From Patescibacteria group bacterium (GTDB lineage: Bacteria; Patescibacteriota; UBA1384; XYA2-FULL-43-10; 1-14-0-10-43-13): 64,000 nucleotides of DNA. Below, in pieces: positions 2,234 through 56,276 of this stretch. The notes beneath the pieces were generated by a model that was not told where the DNA came from, ran no database searches, and worked only from the letters and a program-made list of their open reading frames with translations. Every line of letters begins with the position of its first letter. Position 1 is the stretch's first letter. The stretch spans positions 238,564-302,563 of the forward strand of contig JBAZNP010000001.1 of the NCBI GenBank assembly GCA_041649155.1, written 5' to 3'. Made by a program: the position numbers and the translations under genes.

Positions 2234-3202
2234 TCAAATATTGTCTTTGCAGATATTAACCGTCAGCAAAAGAAGTGCCAGACTAGGGCCAAGAAGGCCT
2301 GCTTTCATTTGCTTGTCTATATGAAACAAATTCAAATAGATTTTTTTAAACTTGGCTCTATCGTAATGGCGAAGCAATTCTCTACTTTTTGAAACAATAA
2401 AAGGATGTAATTTCGCTTCTTTGGCAATACTACCTGGAGTTAATCCTTTAGCATTTAATTCAAAAATAGAAAATAAATTCCTGAATTGGTAAACAATCAT
2501 TGAAAAAATGTAAAACTCGTCCTCTCCCGCATCAACCAGATTTTTAAGAGAAAGTAATGCTTTTTTTGAATTTTTCTGCGCAATAGCATCAATAAACTGA
2601 AATACATTGGAATTATTATTGGCTTTTACCAGTTCTTCAATATCCCCTGCTAAAATAACATTTCTATTCTGTGATTTAGCGAATAAGGCCAATTTTTTTA
2701 TTTCATTTTCCATTCGCCATAAATCAACGCCAACAAAAACCTGTAATTTAGTTTTCGCTTCACGATCAATCTCCATACCCGATTTTTTAGTTTCGTCCTG
2801 TATCCAATAACTTAATTTGTCGTTAGATAAAGCCGTTAACTTCTGAGAAAACTTTGGCTTGTTCAATGATTTAAACAAAGCTGTTCTCATATCAGGTAAT
2901 CCATATTCAACGAATAGAATAATTGATGTTTCCGGAATATTATTTAGACTATTCAATATTTTTTTTCTTAAAGAATCATCTTTTCCTAATAAAAGCAGGT
3001 TTTTGATAATTATTAATCTTTTTGTACCAAAAAATGGCAAAGAAGAAATGGCTTTGGAAAAATCGCCGTATGTTAAAATGCCACCCTCAAGACAGGTAAT
3101 ATTCAGGTCCCCAAATTGACTCTTTGAAAATTTTTCAGTCCACTCATTGACTTTTTTATTTATCAAAAATGTATTATCACCATAAAACATGTAAGGCATC
3201 AC
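2234..3202 (-). CDS. holA: DNA polymerase III delta subunit
   Basis: 322 aa. N-terminal clamp-loader delta-like region (FYGDNTFLINKKV...FGTKRLIIIKN) and the length are typical of HolA. Confidence 0.55.
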   Translation of the reverse strand: MMPYMFYGDNTFLINKKVNEWTEKFSKSQFGDLNITCLEGGILTYGDFSKAISSLPFFGTKRLIIIKNLLLLGKDDSLRKKILNSLNNIPETSIILFVEYGLPDMRTALFKSLNKPKFSQKLTALSNDKLSYWIQDETKKSGMEIDREAKTKLQVFVGVDLWRMENEIKKLALFAKSQNRNVILAGDIEELVKANNNSNVFQFIDAIAQKNSKKALLSLKNLVDAGEDEFYIFSMIVYQFRNLFSIFELNAKGLTPGSIAKEAKLHPFIVSKSRELLRHYDRAKFKKIYLNLFHIDKQMKAGLLGPSLALLLLTVNICKDNI

Positions 3203-5665: not shown

Positions 5666-6943
5666 TTAAATCTTTAGAACTTTCATCTCCCCCCAGTTAT
5701 TCCCGACTTTAACCTCGGCAACAATCGGAACGCAAAGCTTAATCACTTGTTCCATTGTCTCTTTGACAATTTTTGCAACCTCCGAAACAGCAGAATCCAC
5801 AACTTCGATTATAAGTTCATCATGAATGGTTAAGAGCATTTGAGCTTTAAATTTATTTTTATTTAAATCGTCCAGCTTTTTTTCGAGATCAATCATAGCT
5901 AATTTCAAAATTTCGGCCGCCGACCCTTGCACTGGAGTATTTATCGCCATTCTTTCTTCCGCATTGGCAATATTGCGATAATGAGAATCAATATTCGGCA
6001 GCATTCTTTTGAAACCAAATATTGTTTCGACGTACCCTTCATCATGCGCTTTTCCGATCATCCGATTGCAGTAATCCTTAATTCCAGAATGAGCTGTGAA
6101 ATATCGACTTATGAAGTCCGCCGCTTTTTCTTGTTCTATACTTAAAGACTGCGACAAACCATAAGGGCTCATGCCATACAAAACTCCAAAATTAACGGTC
6201 TTAGCCACCCGTCTCTGGTCACTGGTTACCTTATTTGTTTTTGTATCAAATATTTCAGCAGCAGTTTTTGCATGAATGTCCTGATGTTGAATAAAAGCTT
6301 CTTTCATTACCTTGTCATTGGCCAGACAGGCCACAACTCTTAGTTCGATTTGAGAATAATCGGCAGAAATTAACTTCATTCCTTTTGAAGCGACAAAAGC
6401 TTTTCTAATTTTCTGACCCAGCTCTCCTTTTATGGGAATGTTTTGTAAGTTTGGTTCATTTGAAGTTAATCTGCCGGTAGTTGTATCCTGCCCATAAGAG
6501 GTATGAAGCCTGGATTTTTCATCAACCAACAAGGGCAGTGGTTTCAAATATGTTGATAGCAATTTTGAAAGTTCTCTGTACTCCAAAATTGGCTTGATGA
6601 TCTTATGTTTTCCTTCGAGTTTTTTAAGTTCATTGGCGGCCGTAGAATAACCGTTTTTAGTCTTTTTAATTTCACCATTTAACAGTTTAAACTTTTTATA
6701 AAGAATTTCTGCCATCTGCATCGGGGAATTGATGTTAAATTCTTCACCGGCCAGCTTCCAGATCTGTTTCTCAATTTTCCTTAATTTTCCTTCAGTATCT
6801 TTAGCTAGTGAATTTAATGATTTCACATCAATCTCAACACCGATTTTTTCCATCCGACGCAAAACCGGACCAATCTGTTCATTAATTTCCTTTGATGTTA
6901 TTTTTGGCAATTCAATGCCTTGTTCTTTTAAATGGGACCACAT
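5666..6943 (-). CDS. polA: DNA polymerase I, polymerase (palm/fingers/thumb) domain as a stand-alone gene
   Basis: 425 aa. Aligns with the Pol I C-terminal domain: NLQNIPIK, SADYSQIELRVVA, QRRVAKTVNFGVLYGMS, TIHDELIIEV. It begins exactly at the start of the polymerase domain; no 3'-5' exonuclease domain is present. Confidence 0.85.
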   Translation of the reverse strand: MWSHLKEQGIELPKITSKEINEQIGPVLRRMEKIGVEIDVKSLNSLAKDTEGKLRKIEKQIWKLAGEEFNINSPMQMAEILYKKFKLLNGEIKKTKNGYSTAANELKKLEGKHKIIKPILEYRELSKLLSTYLKPLPLLVDEKSRLHTSYGQDTTTGRLTSNEPNLQNIPIKGELGQKIRKAFVASKGMKLISADYSQIELRVVACLANDKVMKEAFIQHQDIHAKTAAEIFDTKTNKVTSDQRRVAKTVNFGVLYGMSPYGLSQSLSIEQEKAADFISRYFTAHSGIKDYCNRMIGKAHDEGYVETIFGFKRMLPNIDSHYRNIANAEERMAINTPVQGSAAEILKLAMIDLEKKLDDLNKNKFKAQMLLTIHDELIIEVVDSAVSEVAKIVKETMEQVIKLCVPIVAEVKVGNNWGEMKVLKI

Positions 6944-6955
6944 AGTAAGTTTGAA

Positions 6956-7032
6956 TTAAGAATTTTGAATTATGAATTATGAAATAGCAGCTCTACCTAT
7001 TAGCCATGATTCTTGATTCTAGATTCATGATT
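6956..7032. repeat. Family C palindromic element (GAATCATGAAT...AGAATCAAGAATCATGG core)
   Basis: The reverse complement closely matches 33466..33556 (agaatcatgaatNtagaatcaagaatcatgg). Both have flanking inverted arms (gaatcatgaat / attcataattc). Confidence 0.75.
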
Positions 7033-8130
7033 CTATAAAAGCTTCAGCTGTTCGTCTTTCTGCTTCTGCTCGGATGCTTCCTTAGTTTTTGGCGGCTCGG
7101 ATTTTTCAATTCCAAATCTTTTCAAAAGCGAATGAAACCCAAGTTCTAAAAATAACTCTTTCACTTTCTCTTTATCGTATTCTCCCCATTTGGCGTCATT
7201 GAGATCGAAATCAATCGGAACTTCCTTGTAAATTGTAGCCAGACTTTGCGACAAAAATGCCTGTTCCTTATATTGTATCAAAAGCTGCAAGATACGTGGT
7301 TTTATGTTTAATTTTTTGGCAGCCTCAACCAATTTATCATTTTCCATTTCACTGTTGTCATCCCGAGCGTAGTCGAGGGATCTTTTATTGGAAGATTTCT
7401 CCGCCCTCAGACAAGGCTGAGGAGTCGAAATGACAATATTTTTTTCAATTTTTTCATACAAATTTTTAAGCGTGTCAAATTGCTGGAGCAATTTAGTGGC
7501 AGTAACATTTCCGATATTCGGCACCCCTGGAATGTTGTCTGATGGATCACCAGCCAGTGCTTTTAGGTCAATAAAATCTTCCGGATCAAGACCATATTCA
7601 TCTTTAATAACTTTTCGATCTACCACCGCCATTTGAGACAGTCCTTTTCGAAGACTGTAAACAAAAATATTGCCATCTATCAACTGATAAATATCTTTAT
7701 CACCCGAAACAATATAAACTTCCAAGCCTTCATTCGGAATATGCTGGCATTTTGAATTATGTTCATGGCAGTTTTTAACTATTGTGCCAATACAATCATC
7801 AGCCTCATAACCTTCTTTTTCGTATATTGGAATTTCAAAAGCAGATAGCAATTCCTTTACCCTTGGCATTTGGTCATATAATTCCTGATCGGCTTTTACT
7901 CTTGTTGCCTTATAAGCCGCATATTGCTCGGTCCGAAAAGTTGCTTTTGAGACGTCAAAAGAAGCTGCTACATAATCCGGATGCAGGTCTTCCAGCGTTT
8001 TAATTAAAGTGGTTGTAAAGCCATATACAGCATTGGTCTGCTCACCCTTTCGGGTGGACATGCTTTTGGGTAACGCATGATAGGCACGATGTATCACCGC
8101 GTTAGAATCAATTAAGACAAGCTTTTTCAT
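7033..8130 (-). CDS. polA: DNA polymerase I 5'-3' exonuclease (FEN-like) domain as a stand-alone gene
   Basis: 365 aa. Starts MKKLVLIDSNAVIHRAYHAL...YGFT; acidic metal-binding clusters and helix-hairpin-helix GDPSDNIPGVPNIG match the 5' nuclease domain. Lys/Glu-rich C-terminal tail. Confidence 0.85.
   Translation of the reverse strand: MKKLVLIDSNAVIHRAYHALPKSMSTRKGEQTNAVYGFTTTLIKTLEDLHPDYVAASFDVSKATFRTEQYAAYKATRVKADQELYDQMPRVKELLSAFEIPIYEKEGYEADDCIGTIVKNCHEHNSKCQHIPNEGLEVYIVSGDKDIYQLIDGNIFVYSLRKGLSQMAVVDRKVIKDEYGLDPEDFIDLKALAGDPSDNIPGVPNIGNVTATKLLQQFDTLKNLYEKIEKNIVISTPQPCLRAEKSSNKRSLDYARDDNSEMENDKLVEAAKKLNIKPRILQLLIQYKEQAFLSQSLATIYKEVPIDFDLNDAKWGEYDKEKVKELFLELGFHSLLKRFGIEKSEPPKTKEASEQKQKDEQLKLL
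7355..7436. repeat. Family A palindromic element copy inside the polA 5'-nuclease CDS, reading frame kept
   Basis: Same TTGTCATCCCGAGC ... TCGAAATGACAA termini as 2105..2207. Translated on the minus strand it contributes about 27-30 extra residues (NIVISTPQPCLRAEKSSNKRSLDYARDDNS) between conserved 5'-nuclease blocks. Confidence 0.8.
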
Positions 8131-32465: not shown

Positions 32466-32584
32466 ATGTCATTTCGACTCCTCAGCCTTGTCTGAGGGTG
32501 GACCTGCCTGCCGGCAGGCAGGGAAATCTTAAAATAGATTATTATTTCTATTAGAAGATCCCTCCACGTTGGTCGGGATGACAC
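32466..32584. repeat. Family A palindromic element (reverse orientation) carrying the 20-bp palindrome CCTGCCTGCCGGCAGGCAGG
   Basis: Its reverse complement aligns almost base-for-base with 46450..46568, including TIRs TGTCATCCCGACC ... TCGAAATGACA. Confidence 0.85.
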
Positions 32585-32742: not shown

Positions 32743-33468
32743 ATGAGAGAATACGAACTTACGTATTTAATTTCTGATAATGTGCCTGAATCAGATTTAA
32801 ATAAGGTTACCGGTAAAGTCGGTGGCTATGTTACTAGTCTTAACGGAAAAATTTTAAAAGAAGAAATCTGGGGTAGAAGAAAACTAGCTTATCCTATTAA
32901 AAAACAGGATTTTGCTACTTACGTAACTTTGAATTTCAGCTTGCCTGCTGAAAAAGCAAACGAATTTGAACACAACATTTTTATGTCTTCAAAAATAATT
33001 CGTCACCTAATGATTGTTCAAGATTACGGATCAGAAGAGTTAACTTTGACCAAAGAGGATGTTGCTGAAACAGAAGAAATTACCAAAGTAATTGGCGGTG
33101 AAAAATCATTTGAGGCCGTTATCGGAGAAACAGAGGAAAGCAAAGATTTAATGGCAGTTCGCGGGGACGAAGTAGAGACAGAAGAACCTAAAAAAGAAAC
33201 CAAGAAAGAAAAAACTCCAGAAAAAACAGAACTTGAAGAGGAAGTTGAAGACGCCGCATCCACCGAAGGTGGAGCAGGCGCCCCTGCTTCCACTGAAAGT
33301 GGAATGCGGGGAGAACCTAAAAAAGCTGCAAAAACAACGAAGAAAGCTGAAACTCCTAAAAAACCAGCCAAGACAGCTAAAAAAGCAGAGAAAAAGCCAG
33401 AAGATGAAGCAGACAGACTGTCTAAACTAGACAAAGAACTGGACGATATTCTTGGCGATGACCTGTAA
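32743..33468 (+). CDS. rpsF: 30S ribosomal protein S6 with a long low-complexity Lys/Glu-rich C-terminal extension
   Basis: MREYELTYLISDNV...IWGRRKLAYPIKK is a canonical S6 N-terminal domain. Start at 32743, not the upstream ATG of the track ORF. It is followed by ssb and rpsR as in the conserved operon. Confidence 0.85.
   Translation: MREYELTYLISDNVPESDLNKVTGKVGGYVTSLNGKILKEEIWGRRKLAYPIKKQDFATYVTLNFSLPAEKANEFEHNIFMSSKIIRHLMIVQDYGSEELTLTKEDVAETEEITKVIGGEKSFEAVIGETEESKDLMAVRGDEVETEEPKKETKKEKTPEKTELEEEVEDAASTEGGAGAPASTESGMRGEPKKAAKTTKKAETPKKPAKTAKKAEKKPEDEADRLSKLDKELDDILGDDL
33250..33311. repeat. Family E palindromic element inside the rpsF coding sequence
   Basis: gacgccgcatccaccgaaggtggagcaggcgcccctgcttcc...ggaatgcgggg matches 40199..40255 in pyrG. 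The first hairpin, tccacc/ggtgga here versus tccgc/gcgga in pyrG, is kept by compensatory changes. It encodes DAASTEGGAGAPAS..GMRG. Confidence 0.8.
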
Positions 33469-33556
33469 AACCAGAATCATGAATATAGAATCAAGAATCA
33501 TGGGATTGATTAAAGTGCTATAATATTCTTAATTCATAATTCTAATCAAAAGGAGC
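33466..33556. repeat. Family C palindromic element, second copy
   Basis: agaatcatgaatatagaatcaagaatcatgg ... attcataattc matches the reverse complement of 6956..7032. Confidence 0.75.
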
Positions 33557-33559
33557 AAA

Positions 33560-34033
33560 ATGTTAAATTTAAACAGAGCACAAATCTTGGGCAACCTAAC
33601 ACGTGATCCCGAGATGAGATATACACCAAATGGTCAGGCAGTTTCTAGTTTTACCGTTGCAACAAACAGGAAATGGAAGGGACGGGACGGAGCTCCGGAT
33701 GGCGAAGACACTCAATATCACGACATCGTAGTTTGGGGCAAACAGGCTGAAGCAATTACCCCAATGTTAAAAAAAGGCTCTCCGGCTTTCGTTGAAGGAA
33801 GACTTCAAACAAGAAACTGGGAAGGTCAGGACGGAGTAAAAAGATACAAGACTGAAATTATCGCCGACAACATAATTGTGTTGAGCAGCAGAAGTGGTGA
33901 CAATAGTAACTTCATGGCCCGATCACAAAGTAATCCTGTTGACGACATTTCAAACTCATCAACTAGCACAGACAAAAAAACCAATACCCCACCCGCTGAA
34001 GATGAGATCGACATAGAAGAAATACCTTTTTAA
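33560..34033 (+). CDS. ssb: Single-stranded DNA-binding protein
   Basis: OB-fold N-terminus (ILGNLTRDPEMRYTPNG), a disordered linker, and an acidic C-terminal tip DIDIEEIPF. Confidence 0.9.
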   Translation: MLNLNRAQILGNLTRDPEMRYTPNGQAVSSFTVATNRKWKGRDGAPDGEDTQYHDIVVWGKQAEAITPMLKKGSPAFVEGRLQTRNWEGQDGVKRYKTEIIADNIIVLSSRSGDNSNFMARSQSNPVDDISNSSTSTDKKTNTPPAEDEIDIEEIPF

Positions 34034-37846: not shown

Positions 37847-37866
37847 ATCTCGTACACCTGCCTGCC
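37847..37866. repeat. 20-bp perfect palindrome CCTGCCTGCCGGCAGGCAGG in the groES 5' leader
   Basis: Identical to the cores inside the family A copies at 32503..32522 and 46512..46531. It is nested in a larger inverted repeat (cacagatc ... gatctgcacag) between the groES promoter and the start codon. Confidence 0.8.
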
Positions 37867-37925
37867 GGCAGGCAGGCTGATCTGCACAGATAATTTTATA
37901 TAATTTTTAAACTCAATTTTACTGA

Positions 37926-46290: not shown

Positions 46291-46449
46291 TACCCTATAT
46301 TCCCCCTCAAAACCAGCATTACGCCATATCGACGTTTGATTCAAAATAACAAAAATAATATTAAAAAATGATTAAGGAAAGATTAAATATTTATTAAGGC
46401 GTTCGTTTTTTTATCTGTAAATTAAAAGTAGTTACTTACCTACCCCTTG

Positions 46450-46568
46450 TGTCATCCCGACCAGAGTGGAGGGATCTTCTGATAGTAATCAGAATTTATT
46501 TTTAAGATTTCCCTGCCTGCCGGCAGGCAGGTCCGTCCTCAGACAAGGCTGAGGAGTCGAAATGACAA
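46450..46568. repeat. Family A palindromic element carrying the 20-bp palindrome CCTGCCTGCCGGCAGGCAGG
   Basis: TIRs TGTCATCCCGACC ... TCGAAATGACAA. Near-identical to the reverse complement of 32466..32584. Confidence 0.85.
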
Positions 46569-46590
46569 TTGCGAGTAAGCGGTTATATTT

Positions 46591-54666: not shown

Positions 54667-56276
54667 TGATAAAAAAAACAATTTCAATTTTATTAATGGT
54701 CGGACTGTTTGCATCTTTTTTGCCTAACTCGTTAACAAATAAGGCAAATGCGTCTGATCGGACAGTCAGTGAATTTATGGCTGGTCAATACTATAACAGC
54801 GTTATTCCTGACTATGATTTTGTAGACATCAATTCTCTTGGTGTGTCTGATATACAAAGAGTTCTAGTGGATAATAACTCTTTTCTTAAAGACTATCATG
54901 ATAACTCAGCTACAGGTGCAGGAAGAAGCGCAGCTCAAATAATTTATGATGCGTCACATGCAAGCTACGATGCCGCGGCCGGTAGCATCAATGGCATTAC
55001 AATCAACACTTCCACCGGTACAATCAGCCCCAAAGTTCTTCTTGTTATGCTTCAGAAAGAACAAAGTTTGGTATCGATGCAGGCGCAAAATGATACAGCT
55101 TTAAACAGAGCCATGGGATATCAATGTCCCGATGGTGGCGGCTGTGATCCAGCCTATGCTGGTTTTGCCATGCAAGTCGGTTGGGCCGCCTGGCAATTGA
55201 GATATAACTATGAATATGCTGCTCGCGGTATTAAAAATCCAGGCTTCACCATCCACTATGTTAAAAACGAGGGCACAACACTAAGCGATTACACAGGAGC
55301 TTATGATGTAATAATGCTAAACAACGCAACTGCCGCACTTTACAGTTATACACCTCATGTATTCGACAGTGCTTATAATTTCTGGAAAATTTTCTACCGC
55401 TTGTTTACAGCAGCTACGCTACCAAACGATACCCCTCCGCCGTACGATGGCAATGGAACACAGATCTTTTATAGAACTCATGTGCAAAATATCGGTTGGA
55501 CGGACTGGAAAGGAAACGGGGAGACTTCGGGAACTACTGGTCTGGGACTAAGGGTTGAAGCTATTCAGATGGCACTGGTTGGAAATCCAAGTCTTGGCTT
55601 CGAGTTTCGCGCACATATACAAAATAGAGGGTGGTCTGAATGGATGAGTAATAGCGGCATTATTGGCACAACTGGTTTGGATTTACGAATTGAGGCAATA
55701 GAAGCTAGAATTACTAATTCTAACGATTATAATGTTTACTATCAAACCCATGTTGAAGAACATGGCTGGATGGAGGCAACACACGATGCCAACATGGCAG
55801 GAACAACTGGACAAAACCTAAGAATTGAGGCAATAAAAATGGAGGTTAATAGAAGATACACCGTTAATCCCCTTGCATTAGAACTCAATGCTAGAGCCCA
55901 TGTACAAAATGTTGGGTGGACCAGCTTGGTTGGCCAAAATAAGTTACTCGGAACGTCTGGAAGAGGTTTAAGACTGGAAGCTATTCAATTATCATTGGCT
56001 AACGCTCCAGCGGGTACATCTATTTTATACAGAGTCCATGTACAGAATATAGGCTGGATGGATTGGGCGAGAGATGGTCAAACAGCAGGAACAGAAGGCC
56101 AATCCTTGAGAATTGAGGCAATTGAAATCAGAGTAGAAGGACCTCAAACTATCCATGTATTTTATGATGGACATGTACAAAATATTGGTTGGATGAACCA
56201 ATATTATGACGGCAATGCTATTGGAACAGCTGGACAAGGCCTAAGGTTGGAAGCATTGGTACTAAATTTCCGATAA
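54663..56276 (+). CDS. Secreted protein with six C-terminal ChW (clostridial hydrophobic-W) repeats
   Basis: Signal peptide, an unassigned N-terminal domain of about 230 aa, then six repeats of about 50 aa, each like YRTHVQNIGWTDW..G...GTTG..LRLEAI.I. This matches the ChW repeat consensus with its invariant GW. Confidence 0.6.
   Translation: MMIKKTISILLMVGLFASFLPNSLTNKANASDRTVSEFMAGQYYNSVIPDYDFVDINSLGVSDIQRVLVDNNSFLKDYHDNSATGAGRSAAQIIYDASHASYDAAAGSINGITINTSTGTISPKVLLVMLQKEQSLVSMQAQNDTALNRAMGYQCPDGGGCDPAYAGFAMQVGWAAWQLRYNYEYAARGIKNPGFTIHYVKNEGTTLSDYTGAYDVIMLNNATAALYSYTPHVFDSAYNFWKIFYRLFTAATLPNDTPPPYDGNGTQIFYRTHVQNIGWTDWKGNGETSGTTGLGLRVEAIQMALVGNPSLGFEFRAHIQNRGWSEWMSNSGIIGTTGLDLRIEAIEARITNSNDYNVYYQTHVEEHGWMEATHDANMAGTTGQNLRIEAIKMEVNRRYTVNPLALELNARAHVQNVGWTSLVGQNKLLGTSGRGLRLEAIQLSLANAPAGTSILYRVHVQNIGWMDWARDGQTAGTEGQSLRIEAIEIRVEGPQTIHVFYDGHVQNIGWMNQYYDGNAIGTAGQGLRLEALVLNFR

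What the first reader, a model, noticed from the sequence alone, without database searches (positions are those of the whole stretch)
5666..8130. DNA polymerase I is encoded as two separate genes (5' nuclease and polymerase) with no 3'-5' exonuclease domain. The 89-bp gap between them is a family C palindromic element.
ORF 7033..8130 covers only the 5'-3' exonuclease/FEN domain. ORF 5666..6943 starts precisely at the beginning of the polymerase domain (ELPKITSKEINEQIGPVLRRMEKIGVEID, compare E. coli EIELPLVPVLSRIERNGVKID). The proofreading domain of about 200 aa that normally lies between them is missing entirely. The 89-bp spacer (6944..7032) is largely a copy of the family C repeat. Either this lineage has a natural split with the 3'-5' exonuclease lost, or insertion of the element split an already exonuclease-less polA. 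The 5' nuclease gene additionally carries a family A element in-frame.
Basis: partly seen in the sequence, partly recalled or inferred. Interest (0 to 1): 0.6.

Follow-up and report, generated by a model that had tools for sequence, protein, structure and literature searches.

The report
Split, proofreading-less DNA polymerase I
In this tiny-genome (Patescibacteria/CPR) bacterium, DNA polymerase I is encoded as two adjacent genes with the proofreading domain missing entirely; the nuclease half ends in a conserved peptide that looks like a sliding-clamp anchor, and the palindromic repeat between the genes is a later, incidental insertion.

Summary
ORF 7033-8130(-) is a complete 5' nuclease (FEN). 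ORF 5666-6943(-) is a complete family-A polymerase domain. No 3'-5' exonuclease domain lies in or between them, and the 89-bp spacer is in another frame. It is not an assembly error: two other assemblies carry the identical locus, and the best 120 homologues of each half are all stand-alone proteins. FEN sits directly upstream of Pol in all seven loci examined, with spacers of 5-125 bp. The closest relative (92% Pol identity) is split but lacks the family C element, so the element did not cause the split. Related "Kazan"/Patescibacteria genomes encode fused FEN+Pol proteins of about 720 aa without the exonuclease domain. Other CPR genomes keep canonical Pol I. A new point: 116 of 120 split FENs end exactly in D-x-Q-L-x-L-L. 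The fused forms carry QxS[F/L]F at the homologous linker position. Canonical Pol I of CPR, Bacteroidota and Anaerolineae carries QLDLF-like motifs there, whereas Bacillota (0/24) and Gammaproteobacteria (0/5) do not. I infer a beta-clamp-binding motif that the fission left on the FEN. The in-frame family A insertion in FEN is also confirmed.

The parts
7033..8130 (-). fen: stand-alone 5'-3' exonuclease/flap endonuclease (365 aa), derived from the N-terminal domain of Pol I
   Evidence: PF02739 + PF01367. It scores better against the polA N-terminus (298 bits) than against the solo-FEN families PRK14976 and Xni, which stay below their cut-offs. The acidic active-site residues D8, D59, E109, D111, D112, D144, D146, D195 and D198 are invariant among 12 orthologues.
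7036..7056 (-). C-terminal heptapeptide DEQLKLL, followed directly by the stop codon: candidate beta-clamp-binding motif (QLxLL)
   Evidence: 116 of 120 homologues end in Q[LMIV]x[LMIV][LFMI]. Per-column conservation is 97-99% for D, Q, L, L, L, against 23-70% in the preceding tail. Clamp-binding-like motifs occupy the homologous position in fused and canonical relatives.
7036..7110 (-). Lys/Glu-rich, poorly conserved tail (residues 341-365) linking the FEN fold to the terminal motif
   Evidence: Conservation profile. It corresponds to the FEN-exonuclease linker of canonical Pol I (Taq alignment ends at residue 293).
7309..7443 (-). 45-residue insertion (residues 230-274) in the FEN C-terminal helical region. 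It contains an in-frame family A palindromic (MITE-like) element at 7353-7437.
   Evidence: The Pfam PF01367 match is broken into two stretches. Taq residues 222/223 are contiguous across it. Orthologues P0122-P0126 have only 4-10 residues here. Other copies of the element lie at 2104-2200 and 46447-46569.
6944..7032 (-). Intercistronic spacer, almost wholly occupied by a family C imperfect palindrome (about 6950-7034, overlapping the last bases of the TAG stop). No GGAG-type ribosome-binding site lies before the Pol start.
   Evidence: Second copy at 33473-33545(+), 82% identical. Inverted arms. Absent from the closest relative L083. No promoter or terminator consensus.
5666..6943 (-). pol: stand-alone family-A polymerase domain (425 aa), with no exonuclease domain of either kind
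   Evidence: PF00476 only. Motif A DYSQIELR (6338-6361), motif B RRVAKTVNFGVLYG (6173-6214) and motif C HDE (5816-5824) are invariant across 63 sequences. The AF2 model has pLDDT 93.9 and pTM 0.90. TM-score is 0.89-0.91 to the Bst/Taq large fragments, covering only their polymerase part.
33473..33545 (+). Second family C copy, between the stop of a + strand gene and ssb, in the same orientation relative to transcription
   Evidence: The orthologous copy is in metagenome locus L131.

Best explanation
This is a natural gene fission of an already exonuclease-less DNA polymerase I, fixed in a clade of Patescibacteria (CPR) near Berkelbacteria. Shown: the organism makes two separate polypeptides from adjacent, co-oriented genes in a conserved fen-pol...holA neighbourhood. 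One is a catalytically intact FEN. The other is a catalytically intact 425-aa polymerase core, predicted with high confidence to fold on its own. The roughly 190-aa 3'-5' exonuclease domain is absent, not degenerate. Shown: relatives display the series canonical Pol I (905-981 aa), then fused FEN+Pol without the exonuclease domain (about 714-757 aa, Kazan/Patescibacteria), then split. Inferred: the linker that follows the FEN domain carried a beta-clamp-binding motif before the fission, and the gene break fell immediately after it. The FEN therefore ends in ...DEQLKLL-COOH and is tethered to the beta clamp left at Okazaki-fragment ends, much as FEN1 is tethered to PCNA. The untethered Pol core fills the gap and displaces the primer into a flap that the FEN cuts. 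Proofreading by Pol I is dispensed with. The family C palindrome is a recent, lineage-specific insertion into the pre-existing intercistronic gap. It displaced the GGAG site that relatives have before pol, but it did not create the split. The family A element is a tolerated in-frame insertion in a variable surface loop of the FEN.
For: Domains and boundaries. Not an artefact: the junction is identical in an ENA 603-kb contig and a Logan contig from another run. Lineage-wide: the top 120 Pol hits are 398-483 aa with PF00476 only, and the top 120 FEN hits are 237-398 aa (median 353) with PF02739+PF01367 only. At least 30 Pol/FEN pairs share a contig, by equal longest-contig lengths in the two tables. 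FEN sits directly upstream of Pol in the window and in L083-L088, with spacers of 34, 125, 111, 18, 14 and 5 bp and no constant frame offset. Fission of polA rather than recruitment of a paralogue: FEN scores higher against polA profiles than against solo-FEN profiles. Fused exonuclease-less relatives: P0242, P0344 and P0379 and at least 60 clusters of them. Canonical CPR Pol I: L003 and P0458-P0515. In an NJ tree of polymerase domains the core split clade has 95% bootstrap support, and it sits among the fused exonuclease-less forms in the best tree. Clamp-motif inference. Phylum-specific distribution: Bacteroidota 5/6, Chloroflexota 4/10, Bacillota 0/24, against a background of 11/625 windows. 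Precedents: QLSLL is an experimentally mapped clamp-binding motif in M. tuberculosis Pol I (bioRxiv 10.64898/2026.09.19.751633), and QSSLF in PolA2 (PMC12926913). Autonomous fold.
Against: No binding, activity or expression data exist. The clamp-binding role rests on sequence pattern and conservation alone. The exonuclease-less forms (fused plus split) group together with only 44% NJ bootstrap, so a single loss followed by fission is not established, and P0344 looks like an independent loss. The Pol core has no recognisable clamp motif (1 of 120 by regex), so how it is recruited is unknown. The window Pol gene lacks an obvious Shine-Dalgarno sequence after the element's insertion, so its expression level is uncertain. 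Only about 10% of the genome was searched for a trans-acting 3'-5' exonuclease.
Confidence: 0.8

Rival explanations
1. The split is an artefact or a recent pseudogenisation: a sequencing or assembly error, or a disabling mutation, introduced a stop in a single polA gene.
For: Metagenome-assembled genomes do contain frameshift errors. The two ORFs are adjacent and co-oriented.
Against: Three assemblies carry an identical junction. There are 120 stand-alone homologues of each half, down to 56-58% identity. The Pol N-terminus (MWSHLK...) and the FEN C-terminus (QLKLL-stop) are conserved. All catalytic residues are invariant.
Confidence: 0.01
2. Insertion of the family C palindromic element split a previously continuous, exonuclease-less polA in this lineage.
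For: The element fills the gap and abuts the stop codon. Fused exonuclease-less Pol I does exist in related CPR genomes.
Against: L083 (92% Pol identity) is split with a 34-bp spacer and no element. L086-L088 are split with 5-18-bp spacers. L084 and L085 carry a different AT-rich palindrome in the same gap. The split clade has 95% bootstrap support and is far older than the element's copy here.
Confidence: 0.03
3. The conserved C-terminal DxQLxLL is not a clamp-binding motif. It is instead a docking peptide for the Pol subunit, rebuilding a non-covalent FEN:Pol heterodimer, or for some other partner.
For: After a fission the two halves often stay associated. The Pol core has no clamp motif of its own. 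The motif ends in L rather than the consensus F.
Against: The homologous linker position in fused proteins carries QxS[F/L]F, and there no docking peptide would be needed. In canonical Pol I of Bacteroidota and Anaerolineae it carries the consensus QLDLF/QFSLF. QLSLL and QMSLL are accepted clamp-binding motifs (and my own knowledge of E. coli MutS). A terminal position after a disordered basic linker is typical of clamp-binding motifs, as in Pol II and Pol IV (my own knowledge).
Confidence: 0.2
4. A single FEN-Pol fusion protein is still produced by programmed recoding (stop-codon read-through, frameshifting or hopping across the hairpin).
For: The element can form a hairpin that brings the stop and start codons near each other. 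The window Pol start has no Shine-Dalgarno sequence.
Against: Frame offsets between stop and start differ among relatives (spacers of 5, 14, 18, 34, 89, 111 and 125 bp give offsets in all three frames). Stop codons vary between TAA and TAG, and spacer sequences are unrelated. The sense-strand hairpin is no more stable than shuffled sequence (z = -0.23).
Confidence: 0.02

Closest known systems
Canonical bacterial DNA polymerase I (E. coli PolA; PolA1 of PMC12926913)
   Same: The FEN and polymerase domains are orthologous, with 45-50% identity in the polymerase domain to Bst, Taq and Klenow. The presumed role in Okazaki-fragment maturation and gap filling is the same.
   Different: It is two polypeptides instead of one. 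The DEDDy 3'-5' exonuclease domain is entirely absent. A conserved QLKLL lies at the FEN C-terminus.
Taq/Bst-type Pol I with a vestigial, inactive 3'-5' exonuclease domain
   Same: No proofreading. About half of PolA1 enzymes have an inactivated exonuclease site (PMC12926913).
   Different: Those enzymes keep the exonuclease fold, which is said to be structurally required for stability (PMC10201439). Here the fold is deleted, and the model still has pLDDT 93.9.
'PolA1-like' polymerases lacking the FEN domain plus a solo FEN (PMC12926913); the Aquifex-type arrangement (own knowledge)
   Same: The FEN and polymerase activities are on separate proteins.
   Different: As far as the text says, PolA1-like enzymes lack only the FEN domain. 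Here the exonuclease domain is missing too. The FEN is the polA-derived domain encoded immediately upstream, and it carries a terminal clamp-motif-like peptide. The survey's CPR entries that I found in its genome table were two Saccharibacteria.
Split exo/pol genes of T7-like cyanophages (S-SBP1-like; PMC10201439)
   Same: A family-A polymerase whose polymerase domain is encoded alone.
   Different: There the exonuclease domain survives as the neighbouring gene. Here no exonuclease gene is present at the locus, and the upstream gene is a FEN.
FEN1-PCNA (archaea/eukaryotes), with a C-terminal PIP box
   Same: A stand-alone flap endonuclease with a short clamp-binding peptide at the end of a flexible C-terminal tail. 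The analogy is inferred.
   Different: The clamp is different (beta versus PCNA) and so is the motif (QLxLL versus QxxLxxFF). The nucleases are only distantly related. Binding is untested here.
Clamp-binding motifs in A-family polymerases: M. tuberculosis Pol I 457-QLSLLDD-463 and actinobacterial PolA2 QSSLF
   Same: The motif is nearly identical (QLxLL / QxSLF).
   Different: The Mtb motif lies in the Klenow part and is reported only in Mycobacteriales. The PolA2 motif lies in a loop of the vestigial exonuclease domain. Here the motif lies directly after the FEN domain.
Rickettsia palindromic elements (RPE) inserted in-frame in protein genes; REP/BIME-type intercistronic palindromes (own knowledge)
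   Same: Short palindromic repeats are found both between co-transcribed genes and in-frame inside essential genes (family A in fen; a family-C-like element in-frame in the FEN of L092).
   Different: The sequences are unrelated. Mobility, target duplications and any RNA-level function were not tested.

Membership tests
Bacterial DNA polymerase I (PolA1; NCBIfam TIGR00593 / PRK05755 equivalogs) | N-terminal FEN domain (PF02739 + PF01367) with the conserved carboxylates | tested here: met
   but on a separate 365-aa protein.
Bacterial DNA polymerase I (PolA1; NCBIfam TIGR00593 / PRK05755 equivalogs) | Central DnaQ-like 3'-5' exonuclease domain (PF01612), active or vestigial | tested here: not met
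   No PF01612 or PF22619 hit in either ORF. polA profile positions 305-487 are unmatched. A custom exonuclease HMM finds nothing else in the window.
Bacterial DNA polymerase I (PolA1; NCBIfam TIGR00593 / PRK05755 equivalogs) | C-terminal family-A polymerase domain with motifs A, B and C | tested here: met
   PF00476 at 5.5e-142. D195, R244, K248, F252, Y256, H374, D375 and E376 are invariant or nearly so (F252). Fold confirmed.
Bacterial DNA polymerase I (PolA1; NCBIfam TIGR00593 / PRK05755 equivalogs) | All domains in one polypeptide, with the whole-protein score above the equivalog cut-off | tested here: not met
   Two ORFs in different frames. Scores of 298 and 554 bits fall below the cut-offs of 720 and 600.
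Stand-alone bacterial FEN paralogues (ExoIX/Xni, YpcP/FenA; NCBIfam PRK14976.x, PRK09482) | Score above the family cut-off and a better match than to the polA N-terminus | tested here: not met
   242.8 bits against a cut-off of 305, and 125 bits against 261. The polA profiles score 294-298 bits.
Beta-clamp-binding motif (QL[SD]LF pentapeptide / QLxLxL hexapeptide) | Sequence fits the consensus, in a disordered or terminal region | tested here: met
   QLKLL at the extreme C-terminus, after a poorly conserved Lys/Glu-rich tail.
Beta-clamp-binding motif (QL[SD]LF pentapeptide / QLxLxL hexapeptide) | Conserved as an island among orthologues, and above chance | tested here: met
   97-99% conservation against 23-70% in the flanks. 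Found in 97%, 83% and 68% of split, fused and canonical CPR proteins, against 0-0.9% of background windows. The pattern is phylum-specific.
Beta-clamp-binding motif (QL[SD]LF pentapeptide / QLxLxL hexapeptide) | Physical binding to the hydrophobic cleft of DnaN | not testable with these tools
   The structure tool takes single chains only. No experiment is possible.
PolA1-like + solo FEN arrangement (PMC12926913) | Polymerase gene lacks the FEN domain, and the FEN is supplied by a separate gene | tested here: met
PolA1-like + solo FEN arrangement (PMC12926913) | Domain content of PolA1-like (whether it retains the exonuclease domain) | not testable with these tools
   It is defined in a figure that is not held. 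[quoted passage not shown]
Split T7-like PolA (exo gene + pol gene; PMC10201439) | A neighbouring gene encodes the missing 3'-5' exonuclease domain | tested here: not met
   The upstream gene is a FEN, and the downstream gene is a LiaF-like membrane protein.
Intergenic palindromic repeat (REP/MITE-like) - family C | Imperfect inverted repeat present in several copies per genome | tested here: inconclusive
   The inverted arms are confirmed, but there are only 2 copies in 64 kb. Related elements occur in 8-9 metagenome contigs. The whole genome is not available.

The most novel reading that the evidence does not exclude
Pol I of CPR bacteria, and apparently of Bacteroidota and Anaerolineae, is a beta-clamp client through an overlooked clamp-binding motif in the linker just after the FEN domain. 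In one CPR clade the exonuclease domain was deleted and the gene then broke right after this motif. That produced a bacterial counterpart of the PCNA-FEN1 arrangement, a clamp-tethered stand-alone flap endonuclease. It also produced the smallest natural Pol I core (about 420 aa), which is stable without any exonuclease scaffold.
Probability: 0.5. Interest if true: 0.7.

Novelty: new variant of a known kind. Interest (0 to 1): 0.6.

Why it matters
Three points matter.

1. The library's most recent surveys of family-A polymerases state that PolAs structurally need the exonuclease domain even when it is inactive (PMC10201439). A widespread, conserved, pol-only PolA1 with a confidently predicted autonomous fold is a natural counter-example. 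It is also a candidate minimal polymerase scaffold for engineering.

2. The invariant C-terminal QLKLL of the FEN, and the motifs at the same position in fused and canonical relatives, give a directly testable hypothesis. The hypothesis is that Okazaki-fragment processing in these bacteria is organised on the sliding clamp, as in archaea and eukaryotes. This touches a long-debated question, whether bacterial Pol I works with the beta clamp.

3. The canonical, fused exonuclease-less and split series within CPR is a clean example of domain loss followed by gene fission in an essential replication enzyme of reduced genomes.

The palindromic elements themselves appear incidental to the split.

Tried and rejected
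- **Genome-contig scan with a Pol alignment.** The patterns chosen (PNLQNIPI, DYSQIELR) are universal, so it returned polA from all phyla and only one CPR locus. It was useless for CPR synteny but useful later as a non-CPR control set.
- **Metagenome scan with the family C 17-mer.** Most of the 119+ hits were chance matches. Only 8-9 survived a blastn filter.
- **AF2 model of the FEN from a 12-sequence alignment.** It was poor (pLDDT 50), so I made no structural statement about the insertion or the tail.
- **Rfam at gathering threshold.** Nothing was found in the window, so neither repeat is a curated RNA family.
- **Promoter and terminator consensus scan.** Nothing was found in the spacer.
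- **Search for a trans-acting proofreading exonuclease in the window.** There were no hits, but the window is only about a tenth of the genome.
- **Recoding or read-through.** Rejected because the frame offsets vary among relatives.
- **Single origin of all exonuclease-less forms.** Not supported strongly enough to claim (44% bootstrap).
- **Literature searches for a description of split or exonuclease-less Pol I in CPR.** Nothing was found. The library lacks most subscription journals, so this is not proof that no description exists.
Full report
**1. The observation.** The ORF listing gives a 365-aa ORF at 7033-8130(-) and a 425-aa ORF at 5666-6943(-), separated by 89 bp and lying in different frames. 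The upstream ORF matches the two Pfam halves of the Pol I 5' nuclease, PF02739 (1.3e-51) and PF01367 (1.6e-27). The downstream ORF matches only PF00476 (5.5e-142). Against NCBI's full-length polA profile (889 positions), the two ORFs cover positions 1-304 and 488-889. The block in between, the 3'-5' exonuclease, is matched by neither. Against solved structures, Pol residues 17-419 align to Klenow chain positions 203-603 and Taq 430-829. FEN aligns to Taq 13-222 and 223-293. The catalytic carboxylates of the FEN and polymerase motifs A, B and C are invariant among relatives.

**2. Not an artefact, and not private to this genome.** The same Pol protein is encoded on a 603-kb ENA contig and on a Logan contig from another sequencing run. 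The 500 bp spanning the junction are identical in all three. The best 120 homologues of the Pol ORF (58-100% identity) are all 398-483 aa with PF00476 alone. The best 120 homologues of the FEN ORF are 237-398 aa (median 353) with only the two nuclease domains. Source names are 'Patescibacteria group' and 'Candidatus Berkelbacteria'. In six relatives whose DNA I fetched (Pol identity 92% down to about 60%), the FEN gene lies directly upstream of Pol on the same strand. holA (Pol III delta) lies a few genes downstream in five of the six. The FEN scores higher against polA profiles than against the stand-alone FEN families, which it fails. It is therefore the polA domain set free, not a recruited paralogue.

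**3. The palindrome did not make the split.** The intercistronic spacers are as follows:
- L083 (92% Pol identity): 34 bp.
- L084: 125 bp.
- L085: 111 bp.
- L086: 18 bp.
- L087: 14 bp.
- L088 (Berkelbacteria): 5 bp.

L083 has no trace of family C and keeps an AAACGGAG ribosome-binding site. L084 and L085 hold a different AT-rich palindrome. The stop-to-start offsets fall in all three frames, and the stop codons differ, which excludes conserved recoding. In the window, the element (about 6950-7034) abuts the TAG stop and has replaced the GGAG site.

Family C has just one other copy in the 64 kb, at 33473-33545(+), with 82% identity over about 85 nt. That copy also lies between a stop codon and the next co-oriented gene, in the same orientation relative to transcription. 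A metagenome scan with a 17-mer was mostly noise. After filtering, it showed related hexamer-repeat palindromes in eight or nine contigs, one of them in-frame inside another stand-alone FEN gene.

One oddity stands out. In both window copies the strand antisense to the genes folds as RNA far better than shuffles (z = -2.8), whereas the mRNA strand does not (z = -0.2 and -1.6) and single-stranded DNA does not. The cause is that C.A mismatches in one strand become G.U pairs in the other. I cannot explain this with two copies.

**4. Where the architecture comes from.** A search of 1.84 billion representatives collapses the pol-only family into essentially one cluster. The next-best hits are ordinary 830-960-aa Pol I, but also proteins of 704-756 aa in which FEN is joined directly to Pol with no PF01612. 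Searching with one of these (P0242) finds at least 60 clusters of 714-757-aa FEN+Pol proteins named 'candidate division Kazan' or 'Patescibacteria'. Below them come canonical CPR Pol I of 905-965 aa from Parcubacteria, Buchananbacteria and Kerfeldbacteria. A Patescibacteria MAG (L003) has a 981-aa Pol I with an intact DEDDy site.

So all three states exist within CPR. In a neighbour-joining tree of polymerase domains, the core split clade is well supported (95% bootstrap) and sits next to the fused exonuclease-less forms. The grouping of all exonuclease-less forms has only 44% support, and P0344 looks like an independent loss. 'Loss, then fission' is the simplest reading, but it is not proven.

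**5. The conserved end of the FEN.** Aligning orthologues showed that the otherwise variable Lys/Glu-rich tail ends in an invariant DEQLKLL. Of 120 homologues, 116 terminate exactly in D-x-Q-L-x-L-L. Column conservation is 97-99% there, against 23-70% just before it. In the fused family (n = 62), the only conserved island in the FEN-Pol linker is Q(79%)-x-S-[F/L]-F(79%). A subgroup has E-M-[SA]-L-P-L. These are the pentapeptide (QL[SD]LF) and hexapeptide (QLSLPL-like) forms of the beta-clamp-binding motif, as I know them from E. coli Pol II, Pol IV, MutS and Hda.

Canonical CPR Pol I carries QDSFNF, QGAFDF, TMTLF or QESLF at the same place in 68% of cases, against 0.9% of background windows. 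Among non-CPR Pol I sampled, a strict regex finds the motif as follows:
- Bacteroidota: 5 of 6.
- Chloroflexota: 4 of 10 (Anaerolineae and Caldilineae), with sequences such as QLDLF, QLPLF and QFSLF.
- Bacillota: 0 of 24.
- Gammaproteobacteria: 0 of 5.
- Acidobacteriota: 0 of 7.
- Background: 11 of 625 windows.

Two precedents are in the library. M. tuberculosis Pol I binds its clamp through QLSLLDD in the Klenow part, a motif reported as restricted to Mycobacteriales. PolA2 uses QSSLF and is described as the first A-family polymerase with an identified clamp motif.

I infer that the linker after the FEN domain is a clamp-binding site in these lineages, and that the fission left it as the C-terminus of the FEN. 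The Pol core has no such motif. Binding itself is untested. The main rival is that the peptide docks onto the Pol subunit.

**6. The polymerase core on its own.** With a 63-sequence alignment, AlphaFold2 gives mean pLDDT 93.9 and pTM 0.90 for the 425-aa protein, with no low-confidence segment. Foldseek aligns it to the Bst and Taq large fragments at TM 0.89-0.91 normalised to the query, but only 0.66-0.72 normalised to the targets. That is, it matches their polymerase part and nothing else. The first 16 or so residues (MWSHLKEQGIELPK...) correspond to the end of the inter-domain linker. This is notable because PMC10201439 states that PolAs need the exonuclease domain structurally, even when it is inactive.

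**7. The in-frame family A element.** The Pfam match to PF01367 is interrupted. Taq residues 222 and 223 flank a 45-residue insert (residues 230-274). The closest orthologues have 4-10 residues there. The DNA at 7353-7437 matches two intergenic copies (2104-2200 and 46447-46569). These share terminal inverted repeats, TTGTCATcCCGA ... TCGAAATGACAA. The loop is a recurrent landing site: P0127, P0129 and P0131 carry other inserts there. Pol homologues P0034, P0052 and P0117 carry repeat-like inserts before motif C. This resembles in-frame Rickettsia palindromic elements (own knowledge).

**8. What was not found.** No PolA-type exonuclease or DnaQ-like ORF is detectable in the window, but that is only about a tenth of the genome. 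There are no Rfam families and no promoter or terminator consensus in the spacer. I found no paper describing split or exonuclease-less Pol I in CPR. The CPR entries I found in the 2026 survey's genome table were two Saccharibacteria.

**9. Verdict.** The causal role suggested for the palindrome is wrong. The architecture is visible in database annotations, but to my knowledge it has not been analysed. The conserved clamp-motif-like end of the FEN, and its homologues in other Pol I lineages, are the most interesting outcome and are directly testable.

Noticed in passing
Loci L011, L025, L071, L081 (Chloroflexota); L046, L049, L053, L054, L057 (Bacteroidota); proteins P0458-P0515 (canonical CPR Pol I): Canonical, single-gene Pol I of these lineages carries a consensus clamp-binding-like motif (QLDLF, QLPLF, QFSLF, QDSFNF, TMTLF) in the linker between the FEN and 3'-5' exonuclease domains. 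Bacillota (0/24), Gammaproteobacteria (0/5) and Acidobacteriota (0/7) do not. The papers held in the library do not mention it.
   Followed up: partly
window 6935-7045 and 33460-33565: The family C hairpin is strand-asymmetric. The RNA antisense to the flanking genes folds with z about -2.8 in both copies, whereas the sense RNA and single-stranded DNA fold no better than shuffles (C.A mismatches versus G.U pairs). Metagenome relatives L092, L143 and L126 show the same arm asymmetry.
   Followed up: partly
L092:694-770 (metagenome contig Ga0209162_1000259): A family-C-like hexamer-repeat palindrome sits in-frame inside another stand-alone FEN gene, between the EADD and GDxD motifs. That FEN also ends in a clamp-motif-like ...EQIPLL.
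   Followed up: partly
L084:2376-2500 and L085:2390-2500: Two relatives carry a different AT-rich palindromic element in the same fen-pol spacer, so this gap is a recurrent landing site for small palindromes.
   Followed up: no
window 6944-6965, compared with L083-L085: Relatives have AAACGGAG 7-8 nt before the Pol start. In the window the element has replaced it, and no purine-rich Shine-Dalgarno sequence lies within 20 nt of the ATG at 6943.
   Followed up: no
proteins P0127, P0129, P0131 (FEN) and P0034, P0052, P0117 (Pol): Other members of the family carry repeat-derived, low-complexity in-frame inserts, for example ...SVISSGRSPVERSHEISPTSPEARGRNDN... and ...NPKSEYRNPKQIIKSNDQNPK.... They lie at the same FEN loop and just before polymerase motif C. 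In-frame palindromic elements seem common in these genomes.
   Followed up: no
window 32502-32522, 37856-37876 and inside the family A copy near 46510-46530: A GC-rich perfect palindrome, CCTGCCTGCCGGCAGGCAGG, recurs three times in an otherwise 38% GC window, once nested in a family A element.
   Followed up: no
window 55527-56263: There are five diverged copies of a 44-nt segment at a 135-nt (45-codon) period, suggesting a protein with tandem 45-residue repeats.
   Followed up: no
window 2234-3202(-): holA (Pol III delta) lies about 2.5 kb downstream of pol, and the same linkage recurs in L083, L085, L087 and L088 (L084's fetched flank ends before that position). The window's delta has SSLPFFG where E. 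coli delta has its clamp-contacting MSLF. That alignment was made by eye from memory.
   Followed up: no
proteins P0290 (417 aa) and P0379 (704 aa): In the NJ tree, a second, long-branched pol-only protein pairs with a fused exonuclease-less protein outside the core split clade. This may be an independent fission or a gene-calling artefact.
   Followed up: no
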